From Candidatus Goldiibacteriota bacterium (GTDB lineage: Bacteria; Oederibacteriota; PGYV01; DYJU01), in contig CALHNI010000005.1 of the NCBI GenBank assembly GCA_938034975.1, positions 60,718 through 124,717 of the forward strand: a stretch of 64,000 nucleotides of DNA, in the 5' to 3' direction. A program made the position numbers and the translations under genes. Positions 33,794 to 58,303 of the stretch are shown here, piece after piece (positions within the stretch are counted from its first letter, which is position 1; the number at the start of each line of letters is the position of its first letter). Under the pieces are notes generated by a model. That model was not told where the DNA came from. It saw only the letters and a program-made list of their open reading frames with translations, and did not search any database.

Positions 33794-34966
33794 ATGGCGG
33801 ATGTAATGTCTGAAATTGAAGAATTGAAAAAAAAATTATCACAAAATCCTGACTCTCTCATTTTTGTTCCTTTGGCTGATGCATATCGCAGGGCAGGTAT
33901 GCTTGATGAGGCAATAGAGGTATGCAAAAAAGGACTTGAAAAACATCAAAATTATACATCTGCCCGGGTTGTTTTAGGCAGAATTTATTCTGAAAAGAAT
34001 ATGCTGGATGATGCGATTTCTGAATTTAAAAAAGTAGAAGCAGTTGATGTTGATAATATAATGGTTCATTCAATGTTAGGTAATATATATTTAAAAAAAA
34101 AAAGATATGCTGAAGCAATTGAACAGTTTCAAAGAGTTCTTTCATTAAATCCAGAGGATCTGGAAACACAGGAGAAATTAAAAGAAGCACTTGCTGCAAA
34201 ACAGGAACCGGCTAAACCAGAATCACAACCAGTTGAAAAACCAAAAGTTGAAGAAAAATCAAATCAGGATCCTAATGAAGAATTACAAAAAAGTTTAAAA
34301 GTAGCTGAAATATATACAAAAAAAGAAGAGTTTGATAAAGCAATAGAAATATATAATGAAATTTTATCAAAGGATCCTGAAAATATTTCTGTGCAGCAAA
34401 AATTAAGAGAGGTTTATAATTTCCAGGAGAAAAAGCTGGAAAAAATAAAACAAAAAACTTCTCAGGTGAGTAAGAACGAAAATGATAAAATAACCACAGA
34501 AGATATACTTGTTGTAATGAAAGATGCTGTTAAAGAAACAGAAAAGGAAGTAAATAAAGAATCTGAAAAAATTGAGAAAACAGAATCAGGTGTTCTTTTT
34601 GATAGCCAAAAGGCAAAAGCAATAGAAAATATTTTAAAGGACTTAACCAATACAGACGGAATGGTGGGTGGAATTTTTTTGCAAAGAGATGGAAAGATTG
34701 TTGCAAGTGTTTTACCGCCTGATATAGATTCTTCTGAAATTGGTAAGGATATTGCACAGATAGTGGATAAAACAGAAAAATCAGTTCTTAATATGAAGCA
34801 AGGTAAATTAAACCATGCAATTATAGCATCAGAGTCCGGACAACTTTTATTTACAGAAATAAGTAATGGAGTTTTATTCATGATAGGAAATGAAAAGATA
34901 AATATGGGCAAAATGAGTTATGTTTTAAAAGATGTAGTTGCAAAAATAAAAGCACTTTTTAAATAG
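33794..34966 (+). CDS. TPR-repeat protein with a C-terminal Roadblock/LC7 (MglB-like) domain
   Basis: N-terminal TPRs (..A.AY...GM.DEAIE....), a Glu/Lys-rich linker, and a C-terminal ~110 aa GMVGGIFLQRDGKIVAS..P........IAQIV......LNMKQGKLNHAIIASESGQLLFTEISNGVLFMIG typical of Roadblock/LC7. Confidence 0.5.
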   Translation: MADVMSEIEELKKKLSQNPDSLIFVPLADAYRRAGMLDEAIEVCKKGLEKHQNYTSARVVLGRIYSEKNMLDDAISEFKKVEAVDVDNIMVHSMLGNIYLKKKRYAEAIEQFQRVLSLNPEDLETQEKLKEALAAKQEPAKPESQPVEKPKVEEKSNQDPNEELQKSLKVAEIYTKKEEFDKAIEIYNEILSKDPENISVQQKLREVYNFQEKKLEKIKQKTSQVSKNENDKITTEDILVVMKDAVKETEKEVNKESEKIEKTESGVLFDSQKAKAIENILKDLTNTDGMVGGIFLQRDGKIVASVLPPDIDSSEIGKDIAQIVDKTEKSVLNMKQGKLNHAIIASESGQLLFTEISNGVLFMIGNEKINMGKMSYVLKDVVAKIKALFK

Positions 34967-34992
34967 ACAAAAACGGAGGAATATTAAAATAA

Positions 34993-35349
34993 ATGGATTT
35001 TAAAACAGTGTTACAAAAAGTAGTTGAAAATGTTGATGGCGCAATCGGAGCAGCTGTAATTGGCGAAGATGGGATAGCGATAGATCAGTTTACAACCAAA
35101 GCGGATTTTGATATTACAGCCGCAGGTGCTGAATATTCAACTATAATAAGTAGTGCAAAAAAAGCATCTAAAAGTTTCGGACTCGGAAAAACAAATGAGG
35201 TTTTAATATCAACAGAAAAGGCAACTATGATAATGATGATGATGGAAAAAAATCTGTTTGTAACTCTTGCTTTAAATCTTGATGGAAACCTTGGAAGGGG
35301 TAGATTAGAATTAAAAAAAGCAATTCCTGAACTGGAAAAGCTAATTTAA
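34993..35349 (+). CDS. Roadblock/LC7-domain protein (MglB-like)
   Basis: 118 aa. VDGAIGAAVIGEDGIAI........D...AGAEYS.II......K.FGLGKTNEVLISTEKATMIMM...NLFV.L.L.LDGNLGRGRLELKKA matches the Roadblock fold pattern. Confidence 0.6.
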   Translation: MDFKTVLQKVVENVDGAIGAAVIGEDGIAIDQFTTKADFDITAAGAEYSTIISSAKKASKSFGLGKTNEVLISTEKATMIMMMMEKNLFVTLALNLDGNLGRGRLELKKAIPELEKLI

Positions 35350-36469: not shown

Positions 36470-39379
36470 ATGCGCAAAATAAATAAAATTTTATTTTTTT
36501 TAATATTGATTTTTTTTATATCTGTTTATACATTTGCTTTAAATAAAATAAGATATAAAGATTTTAACTGGTTCATTTATGAGACTGATAATTTTTATGT
36601 TTATTATTATAAAGGTGCTGAGTTTTTGGCTAAAATATCAGCAATTTATGCAGAAGAAGCATATAATAAAATAAGCAGAGAACTTAATTTTAAATCCAAG
36701 GAAAAAATCCCGCTTTTTATTTATGATTCCCATCAGGCATTTACAACAACAAATATTACACTTTCTTTTCTTGGCGAGGGAACAGGCGGATTCACAGAGA
36801 TGTTTAAAAACAGAGTGGTTTTGCCAGGCAATGGTTCTTTAAAATCATTAAGACAGGTCATTTTTCATGAAATAACGCATGCGTTTCAGTATAAGTTAAT
36901 ATATGGAGAAGGAGGAATGCTCTCATATGCTTCATTATACAAAGATCTTTTTATACCTTTATGGGTTATGGAAGGCAGTGCCGAGTATTTTGCTGATGAT
37001 TTTGATACAATCGGTGATATGATTTTAAGAGATGCAGTTATAAATAACAGATTAATATCAATTGATAAATTGGATGGTTTTTCACATCTTGAAGAAGTTT
37101 ATCTTGCCTATAAGGAAGCGCAGAGTATTTATATTTACCTTGCAAATAAATACGGAAAAGAAAGAATAGGTGAATTTTTAAATGGTTTCCGCGGGGATGC
37201 CGGTTTGGATATAATTTTTAAAAAGGTATTTAAAAAAGAATTTTCAGATTTTCAAAAAGAATGGGAATTTTATTTAAAGAAAAAATACTGGACGCAGGTT
37301 CAGGGCAGGGATAAGCCAGAAAAATACGGACCCAAATTAACTGAAAATAATCATAATTACATAGTTTATAATCAGGCACCTTCACTTTCTCCTGATGGAA
37401 AATATATTGCTTTTATATCAACGCGGGATGGAAACAGAGCAATTTATATAATGAGAAATGATGGAAAAGAAATGAGGCAGGTTTTTGGAAACAGATTTGA
37501 AGGTATTTCAACTGACGGTTTTCCGATTTCATGGTCAAATGATAACAAAACAATTTATTTTGTTTCAAAAGAAAAAGGAAGGAAATATATATTCAAAGGC
37601 AATATTGAAACAGGAAATTTGGAAAAAATTATAATCCCGGAATTTGATGTTCTGTATTCTCCGGCAATATCTCCTGATGAAAGATATATTGCTTTCATTG
37701 GTTTAAAAGACGGGTTTTCAGATGTTTATATACATGATACAGAAAAAAAAGAGACAATGAATATCACCAGGAATATTTTTGCGAATAATTATGTGAGCTG
37801 GTCAAAAAATGGTGATATGCTTGTTTTTACAGAAGAAAGAAATGATTATAACAGATTGGTTATTTTTGATATAAAATCAGGTAATAAAAAATTTTTAACA
37901 AAAATAGTTAAATATGATTATTTGGCGCCAAAATTTTTAAATGATAAAGAGTTAGTTTGTATATCGGATAAAAACGGGGTTTTAAATGTTTATAAAATAG
38001 ATATAAAAAATGGTAATGAATATCAACTAACCAATGTAATAAATGGTATTTTCGGTATTTCGGTTAGTGATAATTATATTGTTTATTCTTATTATGAAGA
38101 TGCGTGTTATAACATTTATAAATACCTTATATCAAAAAAATATGAATTTACAAAAATACCACTTATCTATAATGAAGCATTTTTGGAAAATAAGGAAAAA
38201 AAAGAAGAAAAATTTTTTAATTATGAAAAAAAATACACACCTATAATTAAAATGCCAGAAGAAGGTGATGATATAGAATTTAAAGAAGAAATAGAAGAAA
38301 TTGCAAAAAAAACAATTAAAAACAATGAAGAATATACCATAAAATTTACACCGGATATATTTTTTGCTTTGCTTGGATTTAGCACTGATACTGGACCTGT
38401 AGGTGGTGCTTATATTCTTGCTTCTGATATGCTTGGAGATAATAATTTAGGGCTGCTTGCGAATTTTATACCAGGGTATTTTTCACAATTTGAATTTAAT
38501 TATTTATTTTTAAAACTTCCTTTTGATATTGGATTTAACTTTTTTTATTATCAGAATATTTATAAATTATATGATATAAGAACCAATTCGTTTTTTTCAC
38601 AGCTTGACACAACAGAAATAGGAGGAAGTATTCAGATTAGTTATCCTTTGAGTTTATATGCGAATCTTGGACTTTCACTCGGAACAAAGAGAATAACTGA
38701 TAAATATATAAATTATGATACAAGCAGTATTTATTCTTTTAATGAAAATGAGTCAAATATTTTAAATACTTTGGCATTTTATTTTGTAAATGATTTTTCT
38801 TCATGGCGTGATTTCTGGACATATTCAGGAGATTTTATTTTATTTTATGTGGAAATGTCAGATAAAATTTTTGGAGGGACAAAGACATATACTATTTATG
38901 AAATTGATTTAAGAAAATATTTTGACCTTTCATCTTTTATTTATAAAAATCTCAGTTTTAATTTAAGGATATTAGGTGCAATGACAGAAGGGAATGATAA
39001 ACCATATTTTCTTTGCGGAGGATTAAATACAATAAGGGGATTAAAATACGGCGAGTATATAGGAGATAAGGTTTTAATAACAAATTATGAATTACGTTAT
39101 ACATTGGCAAAAAATTTTGATTTTTCAATATGGCCCTTGCAATTTTTAATGTTTAAAAATTTAAAAATTGCTTTGTTTGATGATGCCGGAATTGTAAAGT
39201 CGGGTATAATTGATAAATTAACCAATGAAGAGATAAAAAACGGAATAGGTATGAGTTTGATAATTGATGCATTTTTAATTCAGAGACAATTTTTACCATT
39301 GAGATTTGATATAGCAAGGAGAACTGATATCGGGGATTCTTCCTGGAAATTTTATTTTTCCTTCAGCACGGGATTTTAA
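36470..39379 (+). CDS. composite outer-membrane protein: signal peptide + HExxH zincin-like domain + PD40/TolB-type beta-propeller repeats + C-terminal Omp85/surface-antigen-like beta-barrel
   Basis: 969 aa. Signal peptide; VIFHEITHAFQ...E.EGSAEYF (HExxH...E); repeated PD40 motifs (SLSPDGKYIAFISTRDGNRAIYIM, YSPAISPDERYIAFIGLKDGFSDVYI, VSWSKNGDMLVFTEERNDYNRLVIF); ends ...WKFYFSFSTGF with a terminal Phe (OM beta-barrel signature). Confidence 0.5.
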   Translation: MRKINKILFFLILIFFISVYTFALNKIRYKDFNWFIYETDNFYVYYYKGAEFLAKISAIYAEEAYNKISRELNFKSKEKIPLFIYDSHQAFTTTNITLSFLGEGTGGFTEMFKNRVVLPGNGSLKSLRQVIFHEITHAFQYKLIYGEGGMLSYASLYKDLFIPLWVMEGSAEYFADDFDTIGDMILRDAVINNRLISIDKLDGFSHLEEVYLAYKEAQSIYIYLANKYGKERIGEFLNGFRGDAGLDIIFKKVFKKEFSDFQKEWEFYLKKKYWTQVQGRDKPEKYGPKLTENNHNYIVYNQAPSLSPDGKYIAFISTRDGNRAIYIMRNDGKEMRQVFGNRFEGISTDGFPISWSNDNKTIYFVSKEKGRKYIFKGNIETGNLEKIIIPEFDVLYSPAISPDERYIAFIGLKDGFSDVYIHDTEKKETMNITRNIFANNYVSWSKNGDMLVFTEERNDYNRLVIFDIKSGNKKFLTKIVKYDYLAPKFLNDKELVCISDKNGVLNVYKIDIKNGNEYQLTNVINGIFGISVSDNYIVYSYYEDACYNIYKYLISKKYEFTKIPLIYNEAFLENKEKKEEKFFNYEKKYTPIIKMPEEGDDIEFKEEIEEIAKKTIKNNEEYTIKFTPDIFFALLGFSTDTGPVGGAYILASDMLGDNNLGLLANFIPGYFSQFEFNYLFLKLPFDIGFNFFYYQNIYKLYDIRTNSFFSQLDTTEIGGSIQISYPLSLYANLGLSLGTKRITDKYINYDTSSIYSFNENESNILNTLAFYFVNDFSSWRDFWTYSGDFILFYVEMSDKIFGGTKTYTIYEIDLRKYFDLSSFIYKNLSFNLRILGAMTEGNDKPYFLCGGLNTIRGLKYGEYIGDKVLITNYELRYTLAKNFDFSIWPLQFLMFKNLKIALFDDAGIVKSGIIDKLTNEEIKNGIGMSLIIDAFLIQRQFLPLRFDIARRTDIGDSSWKFYFSFSTGF

Positions 39380-43853: not shown

Positions 43854-44315
43854 ATGAAATTTATAATAAGAAAAGCAAAAACAAAAGACGCATATAAAAT
43901 AAGAAATATACTAAAAAAATATAGTGCTCAGGCAGATATACTTATAAGGCCGCTTAATGATATTTATGAAAATATCAGGGATTTTTTTGTGGTAGAATAT
44001 AAAAATAAAATTATAGGTGTTATTGCTTTACATATTTACTGGGAAGATATTGCTGAAATAAGGTCTTTTGTAATAGAAGAAAAATATAGAAATTTAAGTT
44101 TGGGAAAAAAACTTTTGGAAACAGCGTTAAAAGAAGCAAAGGAACTGGATTTAAAAAAAGTTTTTGCTTTGACTAAAATAGAAAAATTTTTTATTAATAA
44201 CGGATTTAAAAAAATTTCAAGAAAAAAATTGCCGCAAAAAATATGGCGTGATTGTTTATTTTGTGCAAAATATCCGGATAAATGCGATGAAATAGCTGTA
44301 ATAAAAAAAATATAA
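43854..44315 (+). CDS. GNAT-family N-acetyltransferase
   Basis: 153 aa with an R.FVIEE.YR...LG..LL acetyl-CoA binding motif (motif A Q/R-x-x-G-x-G/A). Confidence 0.6.
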   Translation: MKFIIRKAKTKDAYKIRNILKKYSAQADILIRPLNDIYENIRDFFVVEYKNKIIGVIALHIYWEDIAEIRSFVIEEKYRNLSLGKKLLETALKEAKELDLKKVFALTKIEKFFINNGFKKISRKKLPQKIWRDCLFCAKYPDKCDEIAVIKKI

Positions 44316-44335: not shown

Positions 44336-47300
44336 ATGAAAATTGAAAAAAAAGAGATAGTTTTAAACTTTGAAATAGTTATAAAAGAACAGGATGGCCA
44401 TTTTATAGGTGAATGCATTGAATTGCCAGGACTTATTGTTAGCGGAGCAAATAAAAATGAGGTTATAAAAAATATTAAAGCGGCAATACCACTTTATTTA
44501 AAATATGTGCCAAAAGAGTCCTTTATACCTGTTTATGAAAATTCAATGACTCCTATAATATATGATTTTGAAGAATTCAATGGTTTTTTATATGCAGCAT
44601 CAAGCAAAGATGTGGTTTTAAAAACCCCCACCGGTGATGTTGGTTCATGGGAAAATATAAACATAACAAATATATTTTCGCCTTATTTTAATCCGCCTGT
44701 GGGAAAAATAAGGGATTTTACAACAGAAGATCTTGGTGATTATACGCCTCAGATATACTGTCTTAAATTTTTTAGTGACCTTGGAACACCAAAACTTTAC
44801 TGCGGAACAAATGCCAATGGCGGGATTTATGAAACGCTTGATGGTAAAAAATGGAGCTTATCATTTAACAGTGGTGAAGCAAGAGTGCATTGCCTTGAAG
44901 TTTTCAAAGGGAAACTTTTTGCTGGCACATCAACAGAAGGTAAAATATACAGTTATAATGGTACAAATTGGACAATTTCAAATGCAACAACTGAACTTGC
45001 TATTGTCTCTTTCGGGCTTTTCAGGGATTATCTTTATGCTGGCACTTACCCGAACGGCATAATATTCAGGACAGCAGATGGTATAAACTGGCAGAAAGTA
45101 TTTGATACAAATCAGAGTTTTGTAAATAGTTTTTGTGTTTTTAAAAACAGGTTATATGCTGCTACATCAAAAGCATCCGGTGCCCTTGTTTTTATGACAG
45201 AGGATGGAACAAACTGGGTTGAAAATTTTTTTTCTGAAAAGGATCCTAATTTTTTTAAATTTGCTGTTTTTGCAAATGCTCTTTATCTTGGGACAGGCGA
45301 TAATGGAAGAGTATATAAAACTTTAGACGGTAAAAAATGGGAACTTGCATTCCAGACAGATGAAGAAGATATAAGAGCCATAACAGTTTTTAATGGTTAT
45401 CTATATTTTGGCTCATCACCCAAAGGCAGAATATTTAAAACAATTGAAAGCAATGTGCCGCCACCAAAAGCGTATGATATTGAGATAAGCGAAGTGACGT
45501 CCCACAGCGCAGTTATAACATGGAAAACAGATAGGGAAGCAAACACTATAATAGAATATGGTTTGGATAAAAATTATGGTAATAATATTATAAATGAGAC
45601 AAAAACTGTAAATCATAAAATTACTTTGAATAATTTAAAAGCATTAACAACCTATCATTTTAGAATACTTACTTTTTCTGATATGGGAAGTTTTTCAGGT
45701 ATACTAGAAGATTATAGTTTTACAACCAGTGCGGCAGTTACGCCTGTTATTTCATCAAAGACGCATAGTGACCAGAATAAATGGTATTCTTCAATGGAAT
45801 GTGAACTAAACTGGGGCATACATCCTGAGGTAAAAAATTATTACTATTTATTTGATAAAAATCCTGAAACGGTTCCTGATATTTCAAAGTGTAATGTAAC
45901 GGCAAAAGAAAGCACTATTATAAAATTGCCGGAAGATGGAATATGGTATTTTCATTTACTTATTGAAGATAAAGCAGGAAATATAAGCACATCTGTTTCC
46001 CATTTTACAATAAAGATTGATACTTCGGCTTTGCCTCCTGATGTTTTTTCACCCACACACCCTGATAATACTAAATGGTATAATAACAGCAACGTTGTTT
46101 TAAAATGGAATCCACCCGATGATCTTTCAGGGATTGAAGGATATTATTTTATGATTGATGACTTACCTGGAACATTGGTAAATGAAAAATCTGGCAGGTT
46201 TACGTCTGATACTCAAATTTCAATAAAAATTCATGATGATGGAGTAAAATATTTTCATATTATATCAAAAGATAAGGCAGGTAATATAGGAACAAAGGCA
46301 ACACATTTCAGGATAAACATTGATACGCATTCTTTGCCACCTATAATAAGTTCTAAAACTCATCCTGATACAGAATCATGGTATAATGAAAGAGAGGCAG
46401 AAATTCATTTTGCAAAACCCCATGATTTATCAGGAATTGAAGGATTTTATTATTATGTGGATAATAATAAAACACCGAATGAAAATGTTGACTGGTCTTT
46501 CATTGAATCAGGAGATATAAAAATTAAAGTTAATCAGGATGGGATATGGTATGTTCATGCAAAATCAAAGGATTTGGCAGGAAATATATCAAAAGAAATA
46601 TCAAGTTTTAAATTAAAGATAGATACCCAGGCGTTACCACCTAACATATCTTCCTTAACACATCCTGATCCTAATAAATGGTATAATATTAAACGTGCCC
46701 AGTTTAAAATATATCCTTCTGATGATTTATCTGGCATAGAAGGTTATTATTATTTAATTGATACAAAAGAAAAAACAATTCCTGATACAACATCAGTTTG
46801 GCTTGATAAAGACACAATTTTTACGCCTGATTTAAAAGATGGCGAATGGTATTTACATATCATAACAAAAGATAAAGCAGGGAATGTTGGGATTTTGGCT
46901 TCTCATTTTAAATTTAATATTGATACTACAGCCAAGCCACCCAAAGTTTTTTCAAAAACACACCCGAACCAGGAGGAATGGTATAATAATCCAAATCCGG
47001 AATTACACTGGGAAACCCCTGAGGACCTTTCAGGCATAGAAGGTTATTATTATATTGTTGATAATAAACAAAATACAATACCAACAAAAGAAAACGGTGA
47101 ATGGATAAAGACAAATCAGGTTGTTCTTTCACAAATGGAAGATGGAATTTTTTATTTTCATATTGTTTCAAAAGATTATGCCGGTAATATAGGTTTTGAA
47201 GCAGAACATTTTAAAATAAAAATAGATACAAAAGTTGAATCTCCAAAAGTTATGTCATTGACGCATCCTGATGAAAACAAATGGTATAATAGCCAGATTG

Positions 47301-49873
47301 TAAAATTGTCATGGTCAGTTCCGCATGATTTGTCAAAAATAAGAAATTTTTATTATTTACTTTCCCAGGAAAAACAATTAAAGATAAATCCTGCTCTTGC
47401 AACAAAGACAGAAAAAAGAGAAATTGATTTTAATCTGGCAGAAGAAGGTATTTATTATTTTCATATAATAGGTGAGGATAACGCTGGTAATATAGGCGAT
47501 GAACCGGCTATATTTACGATTAAAATAGATTTAAAAGCCGAGCCGCCTGAGGTAATATCAACAACGCATCCCAATCCGGAAAAATTTTATTCAAATGTAA
47601 ATCCTGTTTTTGTTATAGAAAAAGTAAATGATTTATCTGGTGCTGATGGATTTTATTATATTGTTGATAAACAACCGGAAACAATACCAGATAAAAAAAC
47701 AGGAAGATTTGTAAATGATACAACTATAAAAATTCCGGAAAAATTAGAAGATGGTGAATGGTATTTTCATATTGTTTTAAAAGATAAAGCAGGTAATTTA
47801 GGAACAAAAGCTACACATTATAAATTTAAAATTGAGACAACACCGCCTGAGGCGCACATAAAGGAATTACCACAATTTGTTGCATCCGATACTTTTGAAG
47901 TTAAATGGACAGGTTCTGATAAAGAATCTGGAATAAATTGTTTTACCATAGAATACAAAGAAGGTGAAAAAGGAAAATGGAAAACCTGGCTTTTGGAAAC
48001 AAAAGCGCAATCAGGAATTTTTAAAGGAGAAGATGGTATTACTTATTATTTCAGAATAAAAGCAAAAGATAATGCGGGAAACTGGTCGGATTTTTTTGAG
48101 GATGAAAAAATAAAAACAACGATAGATATATCACCTCCTTCACCTGTAACCCAGATAGTTGCAAAGCCAATTGCTGGCGGAAAAATTTTACTGGAATGGA
48201 ATAAATCTTTGGATTCAATAAGTGGCCTTGATTTTTACAGGATATACAGGTCAACATCAAGCGGACAACTTGGGATGCAGATAAATAATGATGGTGAAAC
48301 AAAAGAGACGAAGTTTATTGATGAATCAAAAGAACTGGAAGATGGTATTATTTATTACTATACAATAAGAGCAGTGGATAAAATAGGAAATGAAAGGGAA
48401 AGTGGCAATAAGCAGATTTTTGCTATATGTGACAGAATTGCATTACCACCTGTAATTTCATCAATTACACATCCAATACAAGATCAGTGGTATAATCATA
48501 AAAATATAAAATTAACATGGAATACACCGCAAGATGCAACGAGGATAAATGGTTATTATTATATATTTGACCAGCTGTCAACAACTGTGCCTGATGCAAA
48601 AACAGGGAATTGGATTACAGAAAACGAAATAGACATTAACAATGTATCTGATGGGACGTGGTATTTTCATATAATATCAAAAGATGATGCCGGAAATTTA
48701 TCAGAAGAAGCAACTCATTTTAAGATAAATATAGATACAACAAAACCCAAACCACCGGTTGTTTCTTCTATTACACATCAGGATCCAAACCAGTGGTATA
48801 ATAATAATTCACCTTCTTTTTCATGGACAATACCTTCTGACCCGGCAGGAATAGAAGGTTATTATTATATTTTTAATCAGATGAAAAATGTGGTGCCTGA
48901 CATTGCTACATCAAGTTGGACAAAAGGAACAATTGCGTCTTTTGTTGATGTTCCGGACGGGATATGGTATTTTCATATCATTGCAAAGGACACAGCAGGT
49001 AATATTTCTGAAGAAGTTTCCCATTTTCAGATAAATGTTGCAATGTCGCCGCCGCCGCCTTATGTTTTTTCAGCATCACATCCTGACCAGGAAAAGTGGT
49101 ATAGGGAAAGAAATGTAAAGATACAATGGAAACCTGTAAAATATGTAAATGAAATAATAGGGTATTATTATGTTCTTGATAATAATGAAGGAACAATTCC
49201 AACGGTTAAATCAAATAAAACAATGGATACAAATGTGAATTTTCAGGATTTAAAAGATGGAATTTACTATTTTCATATAATATCGGTTGATAAAGAAGGT
49301 GTAATTGGAAGGACCGCGGCTCATTATAAAATAAAAATCAAGACAAAAATAACTTTAAAAGGAGTCATAACACAATCTAATGGAATTATGCCTTTGCCTG
49401 GTGCAACGGTTGAGGTGATGAAAGAAGATGGCACAACGCTTGGGGTTTCAATTTCAGATAAAGAAGGTAATTATCAAATAGAAAATTTATCCGTTGGGAA
49501 AGTAAAGATAAAAGTTCTTGCCAAAAATCTTCCGCCACAGATGATTTATGATATAGAATTAACCGAGGACCAGTCAGAAAGAATATTAAATATATCTTCT
49601 GAAATATTTGCAATCTATGAACCATCAACAGAAAAAATAATTTTTAATTATTATATACCTGAAAACGGATTGGTTACTATAAAAATTTATACCGAAAGTG
49701 GTAAAATACTTCATACCATAGAAGAAAAAAAGACAGGTAAAATATACAATAATTCTTTTTGGAATGTTAAAGATATAGAAGATGGAATATATCTTTACCA
49801 GATAACTTCAAAAGGTGATGCAACAGGAAAATTAACCAGATACGCTATAAGGAAAATAAAAAAAGGAAAATAA
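44336..49873 (+). CDS. giant multi-domain protein: HicB-like N-terminal domain + BNR/Ycf48-like beta-propeller + FN3 + ten ~100-aa tandem repeat modules + CarboxypepD_reg-like domain + C-terminal T9SS/FlgD-Ig-like sorting-type beta-sandwich
   Basis: 1845 aa. aa 1-60 match the HicB/UPF0150 pattern (FEIVIKEQDGHFIGECIELPGLIVSGANKNEVIKNIKAAIPLYL). Propeller repeats (LYAGT..G.IY.T.DG..W). FN3 (VTSHSAVITWKTDREANTIIEYGLD). Ten repeats of THPD..KWYN...WN.P.DLSGIEGYYY..D......P..............DG.WYFH....DKAGN.G....HF.I.ID. The C-terminus LVTIKIYTESGKILHTIEE...WNVKDIEDGIYLYQITSKGD resembles type-A CTD/FlgD-Ig. Confidence 0.6.
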   Translation: MKIEKKEIVLNFEIVIKEQDGHFIGECIELPGLIVSGANKNEVIKNIKAAIPLYLKYVPKESFIPVYENSMTPIIYDFEEFNGFLYAASSKDVVLKTPTGDVGSWENINITNIFSPYFNPPVGKIRDFTTEDLGDYTPQIYCLKFFSDLGTPKLYCGTNANGGIYETLDGKKWSLSFNSGEARVHCLEVFKGKLFAGTSTEGKIYSYNGTNWTISNATTELAIVSFGLFRDYLYAGTYPNGIIFRTADGINWQKVFDTNQSFVNSFCVFKNRLYAATSKASGALVFMTEDGTNWVENFFSEKDPNFFKFAVFANALYLGTGDNGRVYKTLDGKKWELAFQTDEEDIRAITVFNGYLYFGSSPKGRIFKTIESNVPPPKAYDIEISEVTSHSAVITWKTDREANTIIEYGLDKNYGNNIINETKTVNHKITLNNLKALTTYHFRILTFSDMGSFSGILEDYSFTTSAAVTPVISSKTHSDQNKWYSSMECELNWGIHPEVKNYYYLFDKNPETVPDISKCNVTAKESTIIKLPEDGIWYFHLLIEDKAGNISTSVSHFTIKIDTSALPPDVFSPTHPDNTKWYNNSNVVLKWNPPDDLSGIEGYYFMIDDLPGTLVNEKSGRFTSDTQISIKIHDDGVKYFHIISKDKAGNIGTKATHFRINIDTHSLPPIISSKTHPDTESWYNEREAEIHFAKPHDLSGIEGFYYYVDNNKTPNENVDWSFIESGDIKIKVNQDGIWYVHAKSKDLAGNISKEISSFKLKIDTQALPPNISSLTHPDPNKWYNIKRAQFKIYPSDDLSGIEGYYYLIDTKEKTIPDTTSVWLDKDTIFTPDLKDGEWYLHIITKDKAGNVGILASHFKFNIDTTAKPPKVFSKTHPNQEEWYNNPNPELHWETPEDLSGIEGYYYIVDNKQNTIPTKENGEWIKTNQVVLSQMEDGIFYFHIVSKDYAGNIGFEAEHFKIKIDTKVESPKVMSLTHPDENKWYNSQIVKLSWSVPHDLSKIRNFYYLLSQEKQLKINPALATKTEKREIDFNLAEEGIYYFHIIGEDNAGNIGDEPAIFTIKIDLKAEPPEVISTTHPNPEKFYSNVNPVFVIEKVNDLSGADGFYYIVDKQPETIPDKKTGRFVNDTTIKIPEKLEDGEWYFHIVLKDKAGNLGTKATHYKFKIETTPPEAHIKELPQFVASDTFEVKWTGSDKESGINCFTIEYKEGEKGKWKTWLLETKAQSGIFKGEDGITYYFRIKAKDNAGNWSDFFEDEKIKTTIDISPPSPVTQIVAKPIAGGKILLEWNKSLDSISGLDFYRIYRSTSSGQLGMQINNDGETKETKFIDESKELEDGIIYYYTIRAVDKIGNERESGNKQIFAICDRIALPPVISSITHPIQDQWYNHKNIKLTWNTPQDATRINGYYYIFDQLSTTVPDAKTGNWITENEIDINNVSDGTWYFHIISKDDAGNLSEEATHFKINIDTTKPKPPVVSSITHQDPNQWYNNNSPSFSWTIPSDPAGIEGYYYIFNQMKNVVPDIATSSWTKGTIASFVDVPDGIWYFHIIAKDTAGNISEEVSHFQINVAMSPPPPYVFSASHPDQEKWYRERNVKIQWKPVKYVNEIIGYYYVLDNNEGTIPTVKSNKTMDTNVNFQDLKDGIYYFHIISVDKEGVIGRTAAHYKIKIKTKITLKGVITQSNGIMPLPGATVEVMKEDGTTLGVSISDKEGNYQIENLSVGKVKIKVLAKNLPPQMIYDIELTEDQSERILNISSEIFAIYEPSTEKIIFNYYIPENGLVTIKIYTESGKILHTIEEKKTGKIYNNSFWNVKDIEDGIYLYQITSKGDATGKLTRYAIRKIKKGK

Positions 49874-49925: not shown

Positions 49926-50759
49926 ATGGCAAAATTTTGTAAATCGTGTGGAGCGGAAAACAGAGACGATGCTTCTTTTTGTAAAGAATGCGGAGTCCCG
50001 CTTCCGAAAAAGAGAAAGGATATTGATGACAGAAAAATAAAAGAGTATGAGAAAAGATTAAAAAAATTCTGGATAACGGTTTTTATTATAATAGGTTTAG
50101 CAGGAATTATAGTTTATACAATAATAAAAAAAATAGAATATTATAATAAAGTTGAAACAGTAAAAGAATATAGCGGTAAATATTTAAATGAAGACAAAGC
50201 AGCGTTTTCCGGAATAGGTTTGGGGACTTTTGCTCTTGAAGGACTTACATGGGATTTAAAAATAAATGATATTCAGAAATTATATCCTTATGTGAAAGAG
50301 TCCAAGGATCCTGATTTTGTTACTTCGCTTATGGTTTCGCAGCCGGATTTTAAAGTTGAAATACCACATGCCAATTTTATGAGTTTGGGGATAATAAATG
50401 AAAAATTATATGCAATAAAATTTGAATTCGGGAGTTCAAGAGAATTTTTAAGGCAGCAACTGAAAATACCTAATGAAGATGAAATAATGTATGGAAGATT
50501 TGAAGGAATTTATAAAGTTTTCAGGGAAATATACGGACAGCCGTCTTTTGTGAAAAATGAAATAGGTAAATTAAATTTTTCTGAAAGGTTAAAATATTTA
50601 AAATCAGGGAAATTAAAAGATGGCAGGCCAAGTAATGTTTATATATACTGGATTTTAGGTAAAACAAAGGTAGAAATTGCTTTTTTTGGTTTTAATGGTA
50701 AACCTAAACTCACAGTCAGGTTTTTATATCTGCCTGTATGGGAAAAAATAGGTGGATAA
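49926..50759 (+). CDS. zinc-ribbon domain membrane protein (N-terminal CxxC...CxxC, one TM, extracytoplasmic domain)
   Basis: 277 aa. Starts MAKFCKSCGAENRDDASFCKECG, followed by a TM helix. GGAGG RBS. Confidence 0.45.
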   Translation: MAKFCKSCGAENRDDASFCKECGVPLPKKRKDIDDRKIKEYEKRLKKFWITVFIIIGLAGIIVYTIIKKIEYYNKVETVKEYSGKYLNEDKAAFSGIGLGTFALEGLTWDLKINDIQKLYPYVKESKDPDFVTSLMVSQPDFKVEIPHANFMSLGIINEKLYAIKFEFGSSREFLRQQLKIPNEDEIMYGRFEGIYKVFREIYGQPSFVKNEIGKLNFSERLKYLKSGKLKDGRPSNVYIYWILGKTKVEIAFFGFNGKPKLTVRFLYLPVWEKIGG

Positions 50760-52689
50760 AACAAAAAAACTTTTTTTTACAAATTTTTTTCTTTATCTCT
50801 TTTTTCTTTTGCCACTTGTCTTTTCATCTTTTTCATACAGTATTTTAATAGTAAAAGAAATTTTGTTTACTATTTGCATTTTAGGTTTTATTATTTGTTT
50901 CTTTATGGAAAAAGAAATAAAATTAAAAAAAATAACTTTGCTCCCTTTGATTTTTATTTTTTATTTATTTTTATCTGTATTTTTTTCAAAATATAAATTT
51001 GCAGCAGCAGGGATTTTATATGTGCTGGTCATAAATTTTATTTTTTTTATGCTTTATTCTAATTCGGAAAACATAAATACGGAAAAAATCTTAAAATTTT
51101 TTGTGTATTCATGTTTGCCTTTTGCATTTATCGGCATTTTTCAGTCAGTGGGAATTGATTTTCCAAAAGGACTTTTGGTTTTTGGAAAAAATATACCTGC
51201 AACATTTGGAAATCCCAATTTTTTTGCAGCTTATATTATTGGTATTTTTCCTGTTTTAATGATGCTTTTTTACAAAGACACAGGATTTAAAAAATATTTA
51301 TTTTTTTCTTTAATTATTTTATTTATTTTTTTACTTTACAAAACAGGCTCAAAAGCAGGGCTTTTAGCTTTTTTTACAGAAATTTTTTTATTAATATTTT
51401 TCTCTGAGTCAATATCCAAAAAAAGTAAAATCATAATAATTGTTTTAATTTTTATTATTTCTTTGGTTATTTTTATTAAAATTTTTAATGTGCCGGTTAA
51501 TAAAATTATAGAAAGAAAAGAATGGCTAAAAAATGAATCGGTTTTTTTCAGGGTTAATGTGTGGCATGGAACAATAAAATTAATAAAAAAATATTTTTTA
51601 ACTGGATGCGGACCAGGTTCTTTTGCTTATGTGTTCCCTTTTTTTAAACCAGAAGCAGTGATGTTTTGGGCAAAAGAGCATAGTTATGAAATTGTTTATC
51701 CGGAAAATATTTTTTTACAAATTATGGCGGAAACAGGAATTTGCGGATTTCTTATTTTTTTATTTCTTTTAATCATATTATATAAAAATTTTAATATAAA
51801 AAATAAATACTTTTTTATAAGTATAACCGGGATTTTATTTTTAAATTTATTTTCGGTGGATTTAAATTATATAACATCAATTTTTTTAATTTCATTTTTA
51901 GCGGGTAATATTTTTATAAAGAAAGAAGATGATTTTTTTGTTTTAAATGGCAGAACAAAAAAAATAATTTTTATTTTTTTAATTTTTATAACAATCTGTA
52001 TATTTTATTTTCAGGTTAAAAATTTTATTTCTGATTCTTATCTTCAGGGTGCTATTTGGGATTCAAAACAAAAAAAATGGGAGTATGCAATTGAAAAATA
52101 TAAAAAAGCATTGAGTTTTAATAAAAATAATATTGTGGCACAATATTTTCTGGCAAATTCTTTATATGATAATGGAGATTTATATGGTGCTTTGAAAACA
52201 TACGAGGAACTTGATAAAAAAGTTCCCGGATATATTTTAACCAATTATAAAAAAGCAAATATTTTAAATAGGATAGACAATATTGAAAGTGCAAAAAAAG
52301 AGTATAAAAAAGCAATCTCGCTTGACCCTTATTTAAAAGAAGCACTTTTAGAACTTGCTTTTATATATTATAATGAAAAAAATTTTTCAGATGCTGAAAG
52401 TTTAATAAAAAAAGGATTAAAAAAATATAATGATGCGGCTTTATATAATAATCTTGGTAATATATATTTTTCTTCAGGGAAAATCAAAGAGGCAATTGAA
52501 TCATATAAAAAAGCAATTGAAATAAAAGAAGATAAGGATTATTATTATAATCTCGGCTGTGTTTATTTTGTTTTAAAGGATTATAAAAAAGCAAAAGAAA
52601 ATTTTGAAAAAGCATATAGTTTGAAAAATGATGATGAGAAAATAATAAATATGTTAAAAACAATTAAAAGATATGATATAACTAAATAA
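50752..52689 (+). CDS. O-antigen ligase (Wzy_C/WaaL-like) polytopic membrane protein fused to C-terminal TPR repeats
   Basis: 645 aa with more than 10 TM helices. A periplasmic loop with conserved KTGSKAG... precedes the ligase-type loop. The C-terminal 200 aa are TPRs (AIEKYKKALSFNKNN..AQYFLANSLYDNGDLYGA...). Confidence 0.6.
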   Translation: MDKTKKLFFTNFFLYLFFLLPLVFSSFSYSILIVKEILFTICILGFIICFFMEKEIKLKKITLLPLIFIFYLFLSVFFSKYKFAAAGILYVLVINFIFFMLYSNSENINTEKILKFFVYSCLPFAFIGIFQSVGIDFPKGLLVFGKNIPATFGNPNFFAAYIIGIFPVLMMLFYKDTGFKKYLFFSLIILFIFLLYKTGSKAGLLAFFTEIFLLIFFSESISKKSKIIIIVLIFIISLVIFIKIFNVPVNKIIERKEWLKNESVFFRVNVWHGTIKLIKKYFLTGCGPGSFAYVFPFFKPEAVMFWAKEHSYEIVYPENIFLQIMAETGICGFLIFLFLLIILYKNFNIKNKYFFISITGILFLNLFSVDLNYITSIFLISFLAGNIFIKKEDDFFVLNGRTKKIIFIFLIFITICIFYFQVKNFISDSYLQGAIWDSKQKKWEYAIEKYKKALSFNKNNIVAQYFLANSLYDNGDLYGALKTYEELDKKVPGYILTNYKKANILNRIDNIESAKKEYKKAISLDPYLKEALLELAFIYYNEKNFSDAESLIKKGLKKYNDAALYNNLGNIYFSSGKIKEAIESYKKAIEIKEDKDYYYNLGCVYFVLKDYKKAKENFEKAYSLKNDDEKIINMLKTIKRYDITK

Positions 52690-55693: not shown

Positions 55694-58303
55694 ATGAAGA
55701 AAACATTTCTGGTTCTTATGCTGATAAATTTGTTATTTTCATTGGATTGCAGGAAAAGAATGCCAACTGCACCTGAATATACCCCTGAACCTACCCAGAT
55801 AATAGTTCCAACATATACACAAACAATTACTCCAACATTAATTTTCACAAATACACATACACAAACTTTTACTTTAACTCATACAACAACAAATACTTTT
55901 ACTTACACCGAAACATTTATAATCCCATCAGATACATTTACAGCAACATCTACTTTTTCTGCAACATACTCAGTGACACAAATTTTCATAAATACAGAAA
56001 CATTTACAGAAACTCATACACAATATTTTACCCCGACAGAAACTCCAACTAATAGTTTTACTTTTACAGACACAATGACTTTAACAGAAAGTTTTACTTT
56101 TACAAACACAGAAACGCCAACAATTACATTTTCTTTTACAGAAACTTTTACTTATGGAGCAACTTTTACAGTTACTGAAACTTTAACTCCGTATCATGGA
56201 AGCGCTTTAATTTCGCCAACAACAGTTTATGGAAAAACATCAGGTAATACAATAACAATAACTTATACAAACGGAAATATAAACTGGGCAGAGGCACCGT
56301 CATATGGGACATTAAAAATAAAAATACCGGCTGGCTGGAGTTTACCAAGTTTAGATCCTTTAAACGCAGGGTATTTTAGCGTTGCAGTGGAAAATGGTTC
56401 TTTGTATGGTCAGTGGGTCCAGGGTAATGAAATAATAATTGGTGTTCGTAACCTAAAACCATTTACAGGTAAAATAATAGTTAATTATGGAGACAAAAGT
56501 TTTGGACCAGGTGCTTTTGTTGATGGTAATGGATTTATAGTTATAGTTGTAGAAGTTGATGAAGATGGAAATCAAACCCAGGAGATAGAGCAAAGTCCTC
56601 AGATTTATGTTGTTCCAGCAACACCGACAATAACCCCAACAATAACTCCTATAATGGGAGAAGGAATAATAGAAATTGATCCATACATTTATGTGGATGG
56701 CACAACCGGAAATACAATGCATTTTATTTATACTGCTGGTCCTACGACATGGGCATCAGGAATGCAATATGGGACATTACGTATAACTTTACCACCTGGC
56801 TTTTCTCAACCGAGCACACAAATTACAAATGCAGGTTATTTTTATGTTACTACAACAGGAAATGAATGGATAGGGACTTCAGTAGATGGTCAGGATATGA
56901 TAATAAATGTGAAAGGTTTACCAGCAATAACCGGAAAGATAAATATTTATTATGGTTATAAAGGGTTTGGGAGTCCAGGTGCTTTTATTACAGGAAACGG
57001 AGTTATTGAAATAATGGTAAAGAGTAATCCTTCTGGTGATGAAACTTATAGATTGCATTTACTTCCGACTATTATGATAATACCGCCAACTGGAACTATA
57101 ACGCCGACAATTACAGAAACAAACACTTTTACAATAACACCTACAATAACAGAAACATTTACTATAACTCCTACATTTACCATATCTGATACATTTACAA
57201 TAAGCCCTACATTTACAATATCTGATACAATAACAGAAACAGTAACGCAAACAATTACTCAGACAATTACACCAACTTTAACTTTTACTTTTACCCCAAC
57301 TCCTCACTGGACTTATGTGGGGAATTCTGGATTTTCTGATGGAGCAGGTGAAAATCCATCTATTTTTGTTTACAATGGTATACCTTATGTTGTGTATACA
57401 GATTTAAAAAATGCAGGTAAAGCAACAGTTAAAAAATTTACAGGAATAAATTGGGAAGATGTGGGTTTACATGCATTTACATCAGACATTGCTTATGAAC
57501 CTAGTATATTTGTTTACGCAAATCAACCTTATGTCGCATTCAGAGATTTTGCACACTCTAACAGATTAAGTGTTATGAAATACAATGGTTCTAATTGGGT
57601 TTATATTGGTTCGCCTGGTTTTACAAGTGGTGCTGCTTATAATCCAAAAATATTCATCTATGCAGATAAAATTTATGTTGGATTTAAAGACGGGTCTTTA
57701 AAAGCAAATGTTATGGTTTATGATGGTAACTGGCAATATGTTGGCTCGCCCGGATTTTCAGATGGACAAATTTCTGATTTTTCATTTTATCTTTATTATG
57801 ATGTTCCATATTTTTCATATCAGGATTGGACGCAGAATTTCAAAGCAACAGTTATGCATAACAGTGGAGCCGGCTGGATGGCTATAGGGAATAAAGGATT
57901 TACAAATGGTAAAGTAAATTACACATCTTTATTTGTAGATGACGGAACACCTTATGTCGCTTTTGCAGATGAAAATTTATCTAATAAGCTAAGTTTAATA
58001 AAATATGATGGAGACAACTGGGTTTATTCAGGAGAAGGAATATCAGATGGAGAAGCACAATATGTTTCACTTTTTATTTATAATGGCAAACCATCTGTGG
58101 CGTATAAGGATTCAGCGCATGAAAATAAATTTTCTGTGGTAAAATATAATGGTATTTCCTGGGAATCTTTAGGAATAGGTATATCAGAAGGAGAAGTAAA
58201 TTATATATCATATTTTATATATAATGGTATTCCATATGTTGCATATCAGGATGTAATACATAATAATAAAATATCAGTTATGATGTATGAAGGAAACTAT
58301 TAA
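55694..58303 (+). CDS. secreted Thr-rich repeat protein: signal peptide, Thr/Phe low-complexity linkers, two ~150-aa beta-rich domains, C-terminal 8 x ~45-aa repeats (propeller-like)
   Basis: 869 aa. Signal MKKTFLVLMLINLLFSLDC. Low-complexity PTYTQTITPTLIFTNTHTQTFTLTHTTTNTFTYTETF... and ITETNTFTITPTITETFTITPTFTISDTF... Eight repeats of GFS.G....S.F.Y.G.PYVA..D.....K..V.KY.G..W..(I/V)G. Confidence 0.5.
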   Translation: MKKTFLVLMLINLLFSLDCRKRMPTAPEYTPEPTQIIVPTYTQTITPTLIFTNTHTQTFTLTHTTTNTFTYTETFIIPSDTFTATSTFSATYSVTQIFINTETFTETHTQYFTPTETPTNSFTFTDTMTLTESFTFTNTETPTITFSFTETFTYGATFTVTETLTPYHGSALISPTTVYGKTSGNTITITYTNGNINWAEAPSYGTLKIKIPAGWSLPSLDPLNAGYFSVAVENGSLYGQWVQGNEIIIGVRNLKPFTGKIIVNYGDKSFGPGAFVDGNGFIVIVVEVDEDGNQTQEIEQSPQIYVVPATPTITPTITPIMGEGIIEIDPYIYVDGTTGNTMHFIYTAGPTTWASGMQYGTLRITLPPGFSQPSTQITNAGYFYVTTTGNEWIGTSVDGQDMIINVKGLPAITGKINIYYGYKGFGSPGAFITGNGVIEIMVKSNPSGDETYRLHLLPTIMIIPPTGTITPTITETNTFTITPTITETFTITPTFTISDTFTISPTFTISDTITETVTQTITQTITPTLTFTFTPTPHWTYVGNSGFSDGAGENPSIFVYNGIPYVVYTDLKNAGKATVKKFTGINWEDVGLHAFTSDIAYEPSIFVYANQPYVAFRDFAHSNRLSVMKYNGSNWVYIGSPGFTSGAAYNPKIFIYADKIYVGFKDGSLKANVMVYDGNWQYVGSPGFSDGQISDFSFYLYYDVPYFSYQDWTQNFKATVMHNSGAGWMAIGNKGFTNGKVNYTSLFVDDGTPYVAFADENLSNKLSLIKYDGDNWVYSGEGISDGEAQYVSLFIYNGKPSVAYKDSAHENKFSVVKYNGISWESLGIGISEGEVNYISYFIYNGIPYVAYQDVIHNNKISVMMYEGNY

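What the first reader, a model, noticed from the sequence alone, without database searches (positions are those of the whole stretch)
44336..49873. 1845-aa giant protein with a HicB-like N-terminus instead of a signal peptide, followed by propeller, FN3, 10 tandem ~100-aa modules and a secretion-type C-terminal domain
The domain order suggests a cell-surface or secreted adhesin: BNR/Ycf48-like propeller, FN3, ten copies of a THPD..KWYN...DLSGIEGYYY...DG.WYFH...DKAGN.G..HF.I.ID module, a CarboxypepD_reg-like domain, and a T9SS/FlgD-Ig-like C-terminal beta-sandwich. Yet the first 60 aa are hydrophilic. They match the HicB/UPF0150 antitoxin-like fold (FIGECIELPGLIVSGANKNEVIKNIKAAIPLY) and there is no Sec signal. 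A T9SS-type cargo without a signal peptide is contradictory. Either this is a novel cytoplasmic architecture, a fusion of a small HicB-like gene onto the adhesin, or the real start or signal lies elsewhere. I could not assign the 100-aa module to a family I recognise.
Basis: partly seen in the sequence, partly recalled or inferred. Interest (0 to 1): 0.6.

Follow-up and report, generated by a model that had tools for sequence, protein, structure and literature searches.

The report
Giant surface-type protein with HicB-like head
A 210-kDa protein kept at almost the same length across the uncultured Goldbacteria looks like a secreted cell-surface fibre, yet it starts with a domain borrowed from a cytoplasmic antitoxin (HicB) instead of an export signal, so its route out of the cell, if it has one, is unknown.

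Summary
ORF 44336-49873 (+) encodes 1845 aa and has no hydrophobic segment anywhere. A stop lies two codons upstream, so no alternative start can supply a signal peptide. Residues 11-57 are a true HicB/UPF0150 N-domain. A profile of this region retrieves about 100 small proteins from 1.84 billion, and 76 of the 82 scanned are Pfam HicB_lk_antitox. AlphaFold gives strand-strand-strand-helix, and the top PDB fold matches are almost all HicB/UPF0150. The rest is a 7-bladed propeller, FN3, 7 Big_13-type Ig modules, 2 FN3, 3 more modules, CarboxypepD_reg and a T9SS type-A C-terminal domain. The fusion is not an artefact. Sixteen species-level genomes (GC 30-51%) carry it, and 14 of them have intact ORFs of 1844-1848 aa. 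A sister-lineage copy aligns end to end at 36% identity with 29 gap columns. None has a signal peptide. Other envelope proteins in the window do. PorV/PorQ-family genes occur in related loci. My best reading (about 0.4) is a fixed-length envelope fibre exported without a Sec signal, with the HicB-derived domain as an N-terminal docking or retention module. A cytoplasmic role (about 0.3) is not excluded. I rate it a new variant of a known kind, of moderately high interest.

The parts
44336..49873 (+). Whole gene: 1845 aa, 210 kDa, pI 5.5, with no signal peptide or TM segment
44366..44515 (+). HicB/UPF0150-like N-domain (aa 11-60): strands 14-19, 22-27 and 34-37, then helix 40-57. It keeps the family's near-invariant L30 P31 G32 G37 E42 N46 A50 I51.
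   Evidence: 76 of 82 profile hits are PF15919; HicB/UPF0150 PDB entries at rmsd 1.0-1.5 A
44516..44557 (+). Linker plus conserved strand FIPVY (aa 63-67). The strand forms only when the propeller is present in the model, so it probably closes the propeller (inference).
   Evidence: against 53; near-invariant in Goldbacteria
44558..45451 (+). Seven-bladed beta-propeller (aa 75-372). It is the most conserved domain, at 81% mean pairwise identity.
   Evidence: DUF6242, 36.8 bits, above GA 29
45452..45745 (+). FN3 domain 1 (aa 373-470)
   Evidence: fn3 376-451
45755..47845 (+). Ig-like modules R1-R7 (aa 474-1170), about 100 aa each, with the signature THPD..KWYN...DLSGIEGYYY...DG.WYFH...DKAGN
47846..48460 (+). 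FN3 domains 2 and 3 (aa 1171-1375)
48461..49345 (+). Ig-like modules R8-R10 (aa 1376-1670)
49346..49600 (+). CarboxypepD_reg-like beta-sandwich (aa 1671-1755)
49601..49870 (+). T9SS type-A-like C-terminal domain (aa 1756-1845), ending ...DGIYLYQITSKGDATGKLTRYAIRKIKKGK
43854..44315 (+). Upstream GNAT N-acetyltransferase (PRK07757 type). It is syntenic in all Goldbacteria loci, and its stop overlaps the giant's start in 5 of 13 loci. A functional link is not shown.
49926..50759 (+). Downstream 277-aa protein: a cytoplasmic zinc ribbon, one TM helix (aa ~48-70) and a ~200-aa external domain of unknown family. It is syntenic in nearly all Goldbacteria loci at gaps of 9-136 nt. It is a candidate partner only.
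50752..52689 (+). Wzy_C (O-antigen-ligase-like) plus TPR membrane protein, syntenic in most Goldbacteria loci. It may be envelope-related context.

Best explanation
The gene encodes a real 210-kDa protein of fixed architecture, conserved across the phylum. It has a HicB-derived N-domain, a closing strand, a 7-bladed propeller and 15 beta-sandwich domains in series, which would be roughly 60 nm if extended. It ends in a T9SS type-A sorting domain. I take it to be an envelope or cell-surface fibre. In this reading, the C-terminal domain is recognised in the periplasm by a PorV-family, T9SS-like pathway and fixes the C-terminus at the outer membrane. The rod then holds the propeller and the HicB-like cap away from the cell. 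Because no ortholog has a Sec or Tat signal, the inner-membrane step must use a route that does not need a Sec signal. The HicB-derived domain sits exactly where the signal peptide would be. I propose it serves as the N-terminal docking, oligomerisation or retention module for that step, rather than as an antitoxin. Shown here: the architecture, the homology of each domain, the absence of a signal peptide, and conservation of length, repeat order and N-domain. Inferred: the location, the export route and the role of the N-domain.
For: Every body domain is of an extracytoplasmic type: fn3, Big_13/OmpL47-type, CarboxypepD_reg and TIGR04183 CTD. The nearest non-orthologous propeller relatives carry classical signal peptides (P0004, P0005, P0007, P0012). 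The CTD is conserved like the other domains, at 66% within Goldbacteria and 31% to the sister lineage, and keeps the typical terminal motif, so it is probably in use. PorV/PorQ-family genes occur near the gene in the sister lineage (L005, 195.7 bits, beside a 1403-aa protein whose C-terminus passes TIGR04183). One also occurs in a Goldbacteria locus (L008, 77.5 bits for a partial gene). The conserved downstream neighbours are membrane proteins. The N-domain is under purifying selection across genomes of 30-51% GC, with 70% identity in the core, and residues 48-66 are nearly invariant.
Against: No signal peptide, TM segment, Tat motif or RTX motif exists in any ortholog. T9SS cargo is defined as Sec-dependent (PMC12618676). 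HicB/UPF0150 domains are otherwise cytoplasmic. T9SS core genes were not examined, and PorV-family barrels also occur outside T9SS (the same protein also hits Pfam UPF0164). By the phylogeny in PMC7031533, Goldbacteria sit beside Elusimicrobia and Firestonebacteria. That T9SS is confined to the FCB superphylum comes from an abstract listed, and that these sibling phyla lie outside FCB is my inference. No other protein with a closely related CTD was found. Fixed length and repeat order are unlike typical adhesins. The gene is packed tightly behind metabolic genes (POR, GNAT).
Confidence: 0.4

Rival explanations
1. It is a cytoplasmic structural protein. An ancestral secreted T9SS-type protein lost its signal peptide, gained a HicB-like domain, and now acts inside the cell as a rod, ruler or scaffold of fixed length. 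The CTD would be kept only as a structural beta-sandwich.
For: A signal peptide is absent in all orthologs over deep divergence. The HicB_lk domain is a cytoplasmic type. Length is 1844-1848 aa in 14 of 16 species, and the sister-lineage copy aligns at 36% identity with only 29 gap columns. Orthologous repeats are 62-79% identical against 40% for paralogous repeats, so there is no repeat turnover. Six isolated conserved cysteines are present. The genomic context is housekeeping and operon-like.
Against: All 15 beta-sandwich domains and the propeller belong to families otherwise found outside the cytoplasm. The sorting-type CTD keeps its characteristic C-terminal motif under purifying selection. 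To my knowledge there is no precedent for a giant cytoplasmic Big_13/FN3 rod in bacteria.
Confidence: 0.3
2. It is a T1SS-type giant adhesin. It would be secreted C-terminus first through an ABC/MFP/TolC system, with the fast-folding N-terminal HicB-like domain and propeller acting as the retention plug that tethers it to the cell, as in LapA, MpIBP or SiiE.
For: There is no Sec signal, the N-terminus is a folded hydrophilic domain, and there is a long run of Ig-like repeats. This is the known pattern of T1SS adhesins (from general knowledge).
Against: There are no RTX GGxGxD repeats. The C-terminus is a folded T9SS-type beta-sandwich that passes TIGR04183, not a T1SS signal. No ABC, MFP or TolC genes lie within about 10 kb in the window or in the annotated related loci L003, L004 and L005.
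Confidence: 0.1
3. The N-domain still works as an antitoxin or HicA binder. The fused HicB domain would neutralise or recruit a HicA-like protein encoded elsewhere.
For: The domain keeps all near-invariant family residues. The N-domain alone suffices to inhibit HicA in characterised systems (as summarised in PMC13621843).
Against: No HicA gene is adjacent in the window, and none appears in the loci whose genes were annotated. There is no DNA-binding C-domain. A toxin-antitoxin module would not be expected to stay single-copy, syntenic and fused to a 1780-aa body across a phylum.
Confidence: 0.05
4. It is an artefact: a frameshift, an assembly chimera or a wrong start that joins a small HicB gene to a secreted protein.
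For: One metagenome contig has an in-frame TAG (L001), and one long-read MAG has the gene split in two (L019).
Against: The same continuous ORF occurs in 14 independent species-level assemblies with GC of 30-51%. The junction sequence FIPVYEN..P.IYDFEEFNG is highly conserved. A stop lies two codons upstream in the window.
Confidence: 0.02

Closest known systems
T9SS type-A CTD cargo, such as the large surface adhesins SprB and RemA of Flavobacterium johnsoniae and the CTD proteins of Porphyromonas gingivalis
   Same: The C-terminal ~90-aa beta-sandwich passes TIGR04183. A CarboxypepD_reg domain lies just upstream. The body is long and made of Ig/FN3 repeats. PorV/PorQ-family genes occur in related genomes.
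   Different: There is no Sec signal peptide, which is a defining feature. The phylum is a sibling of Elusimicrobia and Firestonebacteria, which I take to lie outside the FCB group. The N-terminus is a HicB-like domain. The number and order of repeats are fixed.
HicB antitoxins and UPF0150 proteins (PF15919, PF21748; PDB 6g1n, 4p78, 6hpb, 2dsy, 1wv8, 2yzt, 3k6q)
   Same: The same strand-strand-strand-helix core at 1.0-1.5 A rmsd. The same LPG...G....E...N...AI signature. A profile of the giant's N-terminus retrieves this family.
   Different: It is fused to a 1780-aa extracellular-type body. It has no RHH/HTH DNA-binding domain and no adjacent HicA. The window's own sequence scores below Pfam's threshold (14.6 against 27.3 bits).
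T1SS giant adhesins with N-terminal retention modules (LapA, MpIBP, SiiE)
   Same: It has no signal peptide, a folded hydrophilic N-terminal domain, and tandem Ig-like repeats in a protein above 200 kDa.
   Different: It has no RTX repeats, no T1SS genes nearby, and a T9SS-type C-terminus.
Big_13 (PF19077) and OmpL47-type (NF047446) bacterial Ig-like domains
   Same: The 100-aa module matches both families, with the D.AGN strand motif.
   Different: Single modules score below the curated cutoffs. The N-terminal THPD..KWYN segment and the DLSGIEGYYY loop are specific to this module.

Membership tests
HicB / UPF0150 (PF15919, PF21748) | N-domain fold: a three-stranded antiparallel sheet followed by a helix (partial RNase H-like) | tested here: met
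   AF2 models (core pLDDT above 90). Most of the top 21 Foldseek PDB hits are HicB/UPF0150, at probability ~1.0 and rmsd 1.0-1.5 A, although E-values are only 0.04-0.6 because the domain is small.
HicB / UPF0150 (PF15919, PF21748) | Sequence match above the curated Pfam threshold | tested here: not met
   The window sequence scores 14.6 bits on PF21748 against 27.3. The best ortholog reaches E 0.0013. The sister ortholog P0058 has a weak precomputed PF15919 hit.
HicB / UPF0150 (PF15919, PF21748) | Homology shown by profile search | tested here: met
   A 4-sequence N-terminal profile found 103 hits at E<=1e-3 in 1.84 billion proteins. Of the 82 small proteins scanned, 76 are PF15919 and 63 are PF21748. 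All near-invariant family residues are kept.
HicB / UPF0150 (PF15919, PF21748) | Adjacent HicA toxin gene and a C-terminal DNA-binding domain | tested here: not met
   The neighbours are a GNAT and a zinc-ribbon membrane protein. The antisense 70-aa ORF has no family hit. The domain is followed by a propeller.
T9SS type-A cargo | C-terminal sorting domain (TIGR04183 / PF18962) | tested here: met
   TIGR04183 scores 29.3 bits in isolation and 23.4 in context, against a cutoff of 23. Pfam PF18962 scores 24.6, below GA 27.
T9SS type-A cargo | N-terminal Sec signal peptide | tested here: not met
   The highest 19-residue hydropathy mean is 1.19, a stop lies two codons upstream, and all orthologs lack one. 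The requirement is stated in PMC12618676.
T9SS type-A cargo | T9SS machinery in the genome | tested here: inconclusive
   PorV/PorQ-family genes occur in L005 (195.7 bits against a cutoff of 90) and L008 (partial, 77.5 bits). The core genes (SprA, GldK-N, PorU) could not be searched. PorV-family barrels are not exclusive to T9SS.
T1SS RTX/BIg adhesins | RTX nonapeptide repeats or a C-terminal T1SS signal, and adjacent ABC/MFP/TolC genes | tested here: not met
   No GGxGxD motif. No such genes within about 10 kb in the window or in L003, L004 and L005.
Big_13 (PF19077) Ig-like repeat | Match to the family profile | tested here: met
   The whole protein scores 118.3 bits against GA 27 over 7 stretches. 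Single modules score 22.8 bits, below GA.

The most novel reading that the evidence does not exclude
The HicB-derived N-domain is a substitute for the signal peptide. It would be a folded N-terminal module that hands a T9SS-type cargo to an inner-membrane export route independent of Sec signals, through a dedicated translocase, a holin-like channel or hitch-hiking on a partner. That would be a new class of bacterial export signal, recruited from a toxin-antitoxin fold.
Probability: 0.15. Interest if true: 0.85.

Novelty: new variant of a known kind. Interest (0 to 1): 0.6.

Why it matters
T9SS cargo is defined by a Sec signal plus a C-terminal sorting domain. Here a whole family keeps the sorting domain and an extracellular-type body, but for a very long time it has carried a cytoplasmic antitoxin fold in place of the signal. 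There are two readings. Either these bacteria move a 210-kDa protein across the inner membrane by an unrecognised route, or a secreted fibre was turned into an intracellular rod of fixed length. Both would be new biology. They also give a concrete, testable entry point into the cell envelope of an uncultured phylum that sits beside Elusimicrobia. The case also shows a HicB domain used outside toxin-antitoxin systems.

Tried and rejected
- An exact-sequence look-up of the protein found nothing on record.
- The first alignment was too divergent for the genome scan. A 3-sequence alignment worked.
- A CTD profile against 5.8 billion proteins returned only C-terminal fragments of orthologs.
- A CTD HMM against all ORFs of the window and the loci fetched by then (several hundred kb) hit only the giants themselves. 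I therefore could not show a CTD paralog family.
- An apparent similarity between the 1403-aa PorV neighbour and the window's 869-aa lipoprotein is Thr-rich low-complexity bias, not homology.
- The L011 M6 protease has only a weak CTD-like end, at 16.3 bits against a cutoff of 23.
- The large hits P0020 and P0022 in the profile search are repeat artefacts.
- The viral fold search found only small HicB-like proteins and no phage structural precedent.
- The propeller fold search was generic, returning WD40, Ycf48, BamB and BT4663.
- The promoter and terminator scan was uninformative in this 29% GC DNA.
- Literature searches found no description of HicB-fused or signal-less T9SS cargo, nor of T9SS in Goldbacteria.
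Full report
**The observation**

The window is 29% GC. It holds an uninterrupted ORF at 44336..49873 (+) of 1845 codons. An in-frame stop lies two codons upstream of the ATG, which follows an AGGT Shine-Dalgarno-like sequence. None of the internal ATG/GTG/TTG codons in the first 150 codons is followed by a hydrophobic stretch. The highest Kyte-Doolittle 19-residue mean in the whole protein is 1.19, far below that of a signal peptide or TM helix. There is no Tat twin-arginine motif and no RTX repeat. Other envelope proteins in the same window have ordinary Sec or lipoprotein signals, for example 36470, 55694 and 62879. The organism therefore uses classical signals, and this protein is an exception.

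**Domain content**

Pfam and NCBIfam and AlphaFold give the following order:
- aa 11-57: a small alpha/beta domain.
- aa 63-67: a conserved strand.
- aa 75-372: a 7-bladed propeller (DUF6242, 36.8 bits against GA 29).
- One FN3 domain.
- Seven ~100-aa modules.
- Three more modules.
- A CarboxypepD_reg domain (44 bits).
- A C-terminal domain that passes NCBIfam TIGR04183, the T9SS type-A sorting domain. It scores 29.3 bits in isolation and 23.4 in context against a cutoff of 23. It falls just below Pfam's PF18962 cutoff (24.6 against 27).

The ten modules start at aa 474, 572, 673, 773, 873, 974, 1075, 1376, 1478 and 1579. They belong to the Big_13 / OmpL47-type Ig-like families. Big_13 scores 118 bits over seven stretches, and single modules score 22.8 bits.

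**Is the N-terminus HicB-like?**

The window's own sequence matches Pfam UPF0150 only weakly (E 0.03). The best PDB sequence hit is TTHA0281 at E 0.43. I then built a profile from four orthologous N-termini and searched it against 1.84 billion representative proteins.
- It found 103 proteins at E<=1e-3, nearly all 60-130 aa long.
- Of the 82 small hits scanned, 76 are Pfam HicB_lk_antitox and 63 are UPF0150.
- The giant keeps every near-invariant residue of that alignment: L30 P31 G32 G37 E42 N46 A50 I51.

AlphaFold with this alignment gives strands 14-19, 22-27 and 34-37 and helix 40-57, with core pLDDT above 90. In the Foldseek PDB search, most of the top 21 hits are HicB or UPF0150 structures (3k6q, 2yzt, 6g1n, 6g1c, 2dsy, 6u0i, 1wv8, 4p78, 6hpb). 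They match at probability about 1.0 and rmsd 1.0-1.5 A. The E-values are only 0.04-0.6, because the domain is small. The fold matches the published description of the HicB N-domain core (PMC13621843). The strand at aa 63-67 appears only in the model that includes the propeller. I infer that it closes the propeller.

**Not an artefact**

Orthologs with the same fused N-terminus were found in protein databases (P0001, P0015, P0016, P0017, P0058, P0106, P0026, P0117). They were also found in 16 species-representative genomes. These MAGs are labelled Candidatus Goldiibacteriota or candidate division FCPU426. Some carry labels I take to be mislabels (Spirochaetia, Methylomirabilis), because their giant protein is 72-93% identical to the others. 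The nearest relative, at 93% identity, is a Sulphur Cave MAG with 29.7% GC.

Locus GC ranges from 30 to 51%, yet the ORF is 1844-1848 aa in 14 of the 16 genomes. Every copy starts with the HicB-like domain, and none has a signal peptide. The two exceptions are a contig end (L009) and a split ORF in a long-read MAG (L019). One metagenome contig has a single in-frame TAG.

A sister-lineage ortholog (P0058, on the 2.88-Mb chromosome OZ218778.1) aligns end to end at 36% identity with only 29 gap columns. It has an even more canonical 'CPLLPGC' HicB motif.

Orthologous modules are 62-79% identical, while paralogous modules within one protein average 40%. The ten modules are therefore ancient and fixed in position. 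The propeller is the most conserved domain (81%). The HicB core (70%) and the CTD (66%) are conserved like the rest. Residues 48-66 are nearly invariant within Goldbacteria.

**Genomic context**

In Goldbacteria the gene order is 2-oxoacid:ferredoxin oxidoreductase subunits, a small GNAT, the giant, a 277-aa zinc-ribbon/one-TM protein, a Wzy_C+TPR membrane protein, then PurN.
- The gap between the GNAT stop and the giant's start is -3 to 96 nt, and the two overlap in 5 of 13 loci.
- The next gene follows the giant after 9-136 nt.
- In the sister lineage none of this synteny exists, and the giant stands alone on its strand. No adjacent partner is therefore obligatory.
- No HicA, ABC/MFP/TolC or other secretion genes are nearby in the window or in the annotated loci L003, L004 and L005.

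**Is there a T9SS-like system?**

The sister-lineage locus has a PorV/PorQ-family gene (NF033709, 195.7 bits against 90). It sits next to a 1403-aa protein whose C-terminus passes TIGR04183. A Goldbacteria locus (L008) has the start of a PorV/PorQ-family gene about 5 kb downstream of the giant (77.5 bits for 114 aa). Another locus (L011) has a signal-peptide-bearing M6 protease with a weak CTD-like end.

This suggests CTD-based sorting exists in these lineages. PorV-family barrels are not proof of a T9SS, and the core genes could not be searched. Published work places Goldbacteria next to Firestonebacteria and Elusimicrobia and notes that Goldbacteria have flagellar genes (PMC7031533). The T9SS is described as confined to Bacteroidota or the FCB group, with Sec-dependent cargo (PMC12618676 and PMC12398890).

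**Interpretation**

Two readings each need something new.
- In favour of export: every body domain is of an extracytoplasmic type, the propeller's nearest non-orthologous relatives have signal peptides, the sorting-type CTD is under purifying selection, PorV-family genes are present, and the downstream neighbours are membrane proteins.
- In favour of a cytoplasmic role: a signal has been absent from all copies over deep divergence, HicB domains are cytoplasmic, the fixed length and repeat order are unlike adhesins, the conserved cysteines are isolated, and the setting is a housekeeping operon.

I rank them as follows:
- Envelope fibre exported without a Sec signal, with the HicB-derived domain as an N-terminal docking, retention or oligomerisation module: about 0.4.
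- Cytoplasmic rod: about 0.3.
- T1SS-like adhesin with an N-terminal plug: about 0.1. It has no RTX repeats, no nearby T1SS genes and a T9SS-type end.
- Working antitoxin: about 0.05.
- Artefact: about 0.02.

**Novelty**

All database copies that carry a name are 'hypothetical protein' or, for C-terminal fragments, are misnamed FlgD. Literature searches found no description of HicB-fused or signal-less T9SS-type cargo. I class this as a new variant of a known kind: a T9SS-CTD giant surface-type protein that fails one defining feature of that class and carries a recruited toxin-antitoxin fold.

Noticed in passing
window 36470-39379 (+): A 969-aa protein with a signal peptide combines a Peptidase_MA_2 domain, a TolB-like PD40 propeller and a C-terminal segment that matches the Omp85-family barrel (NF047779, aa 786-966, E 6e-11, below cutoff). 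This is an unusual protease-propeller-barrel combination.
   Followed up: partly
window 55694-58303 (+): An 869-aa predicted lipoprotein (MKKTFLVLMLINLLFSLDC) has long Thr-rich TxTxT low-complexity tracts and C-terminal repeats of the form Y.G..W...G.GISEGE..Y.S.FIYNG.P.VAY.D. It has no Pfam or NCBIfam hit.
   Followed up: partly
window 25415-30685 (+): A second giant ORF (1756 aa) has an N-terminal membrane anchor and a TamB domain. With the ExbB/ExbD-, TonB- and LolE-like N-termini elsewhere in the window, this points to a diderm envelope.
   Followed up: partly
window 49926-50759 (+): A 277-aa protein with a cytoplasmic zinc ribbon, one TM helix and a ~200-aa external domain of no known family lies directly downstream of the giant in nearly all Goldbacteria loci. 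It is absent from the sister lineage's locus.
   Followed up: partly
window 43854-44315 (+) and loci L008, L011, L012, L014, L018: The stop codon of the GNAT (PRK07757-type N-acetyltransferase, 181 bits) overlaps the giant's start codon in 5 of 13 loci. This suggests translational coupling of a small acetyltransferase with the giant protein.
   Followed up: partly
L005 23369-25535 (-); L008 20798-21139 (+): PorV/PorQ-family outer-membrane protein genes occur in lineages whose published sibling phyla are Elusimicrobia and Firestonebacteria. In L005 the gene sits beside a 1403-aa Thr-rich protein that ends in a T9SS type-A domain.
   Followed up: partly
L001 1916-1918; L019 10001-15557: One metagenome contig carries an in-frame TAG where orthologs have Tyr (SP*FN against SPYFN). 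One long-read MAG has the gene split into overlapping 951- and 1006-aa ORFs. These are probably sequencing errors or pseudogenes.
   Followed up: partly
L006-L017 record titles: Several MAGs carrying this gene are labelled Spirochaetia or Candidatus Methylomirabilis. Their giant protein is 72-93% identical to the copies labelled Goldiibacteriota or FCPU426, so these labels look wrong.
   Followed up: no
window 33794-35349 (+): A TPR protein with a C-terminal Roadblock/LC7 domain is followed by a stand-alone Roadblock/LC7 (MglB-like) protein.
   Followed up: no
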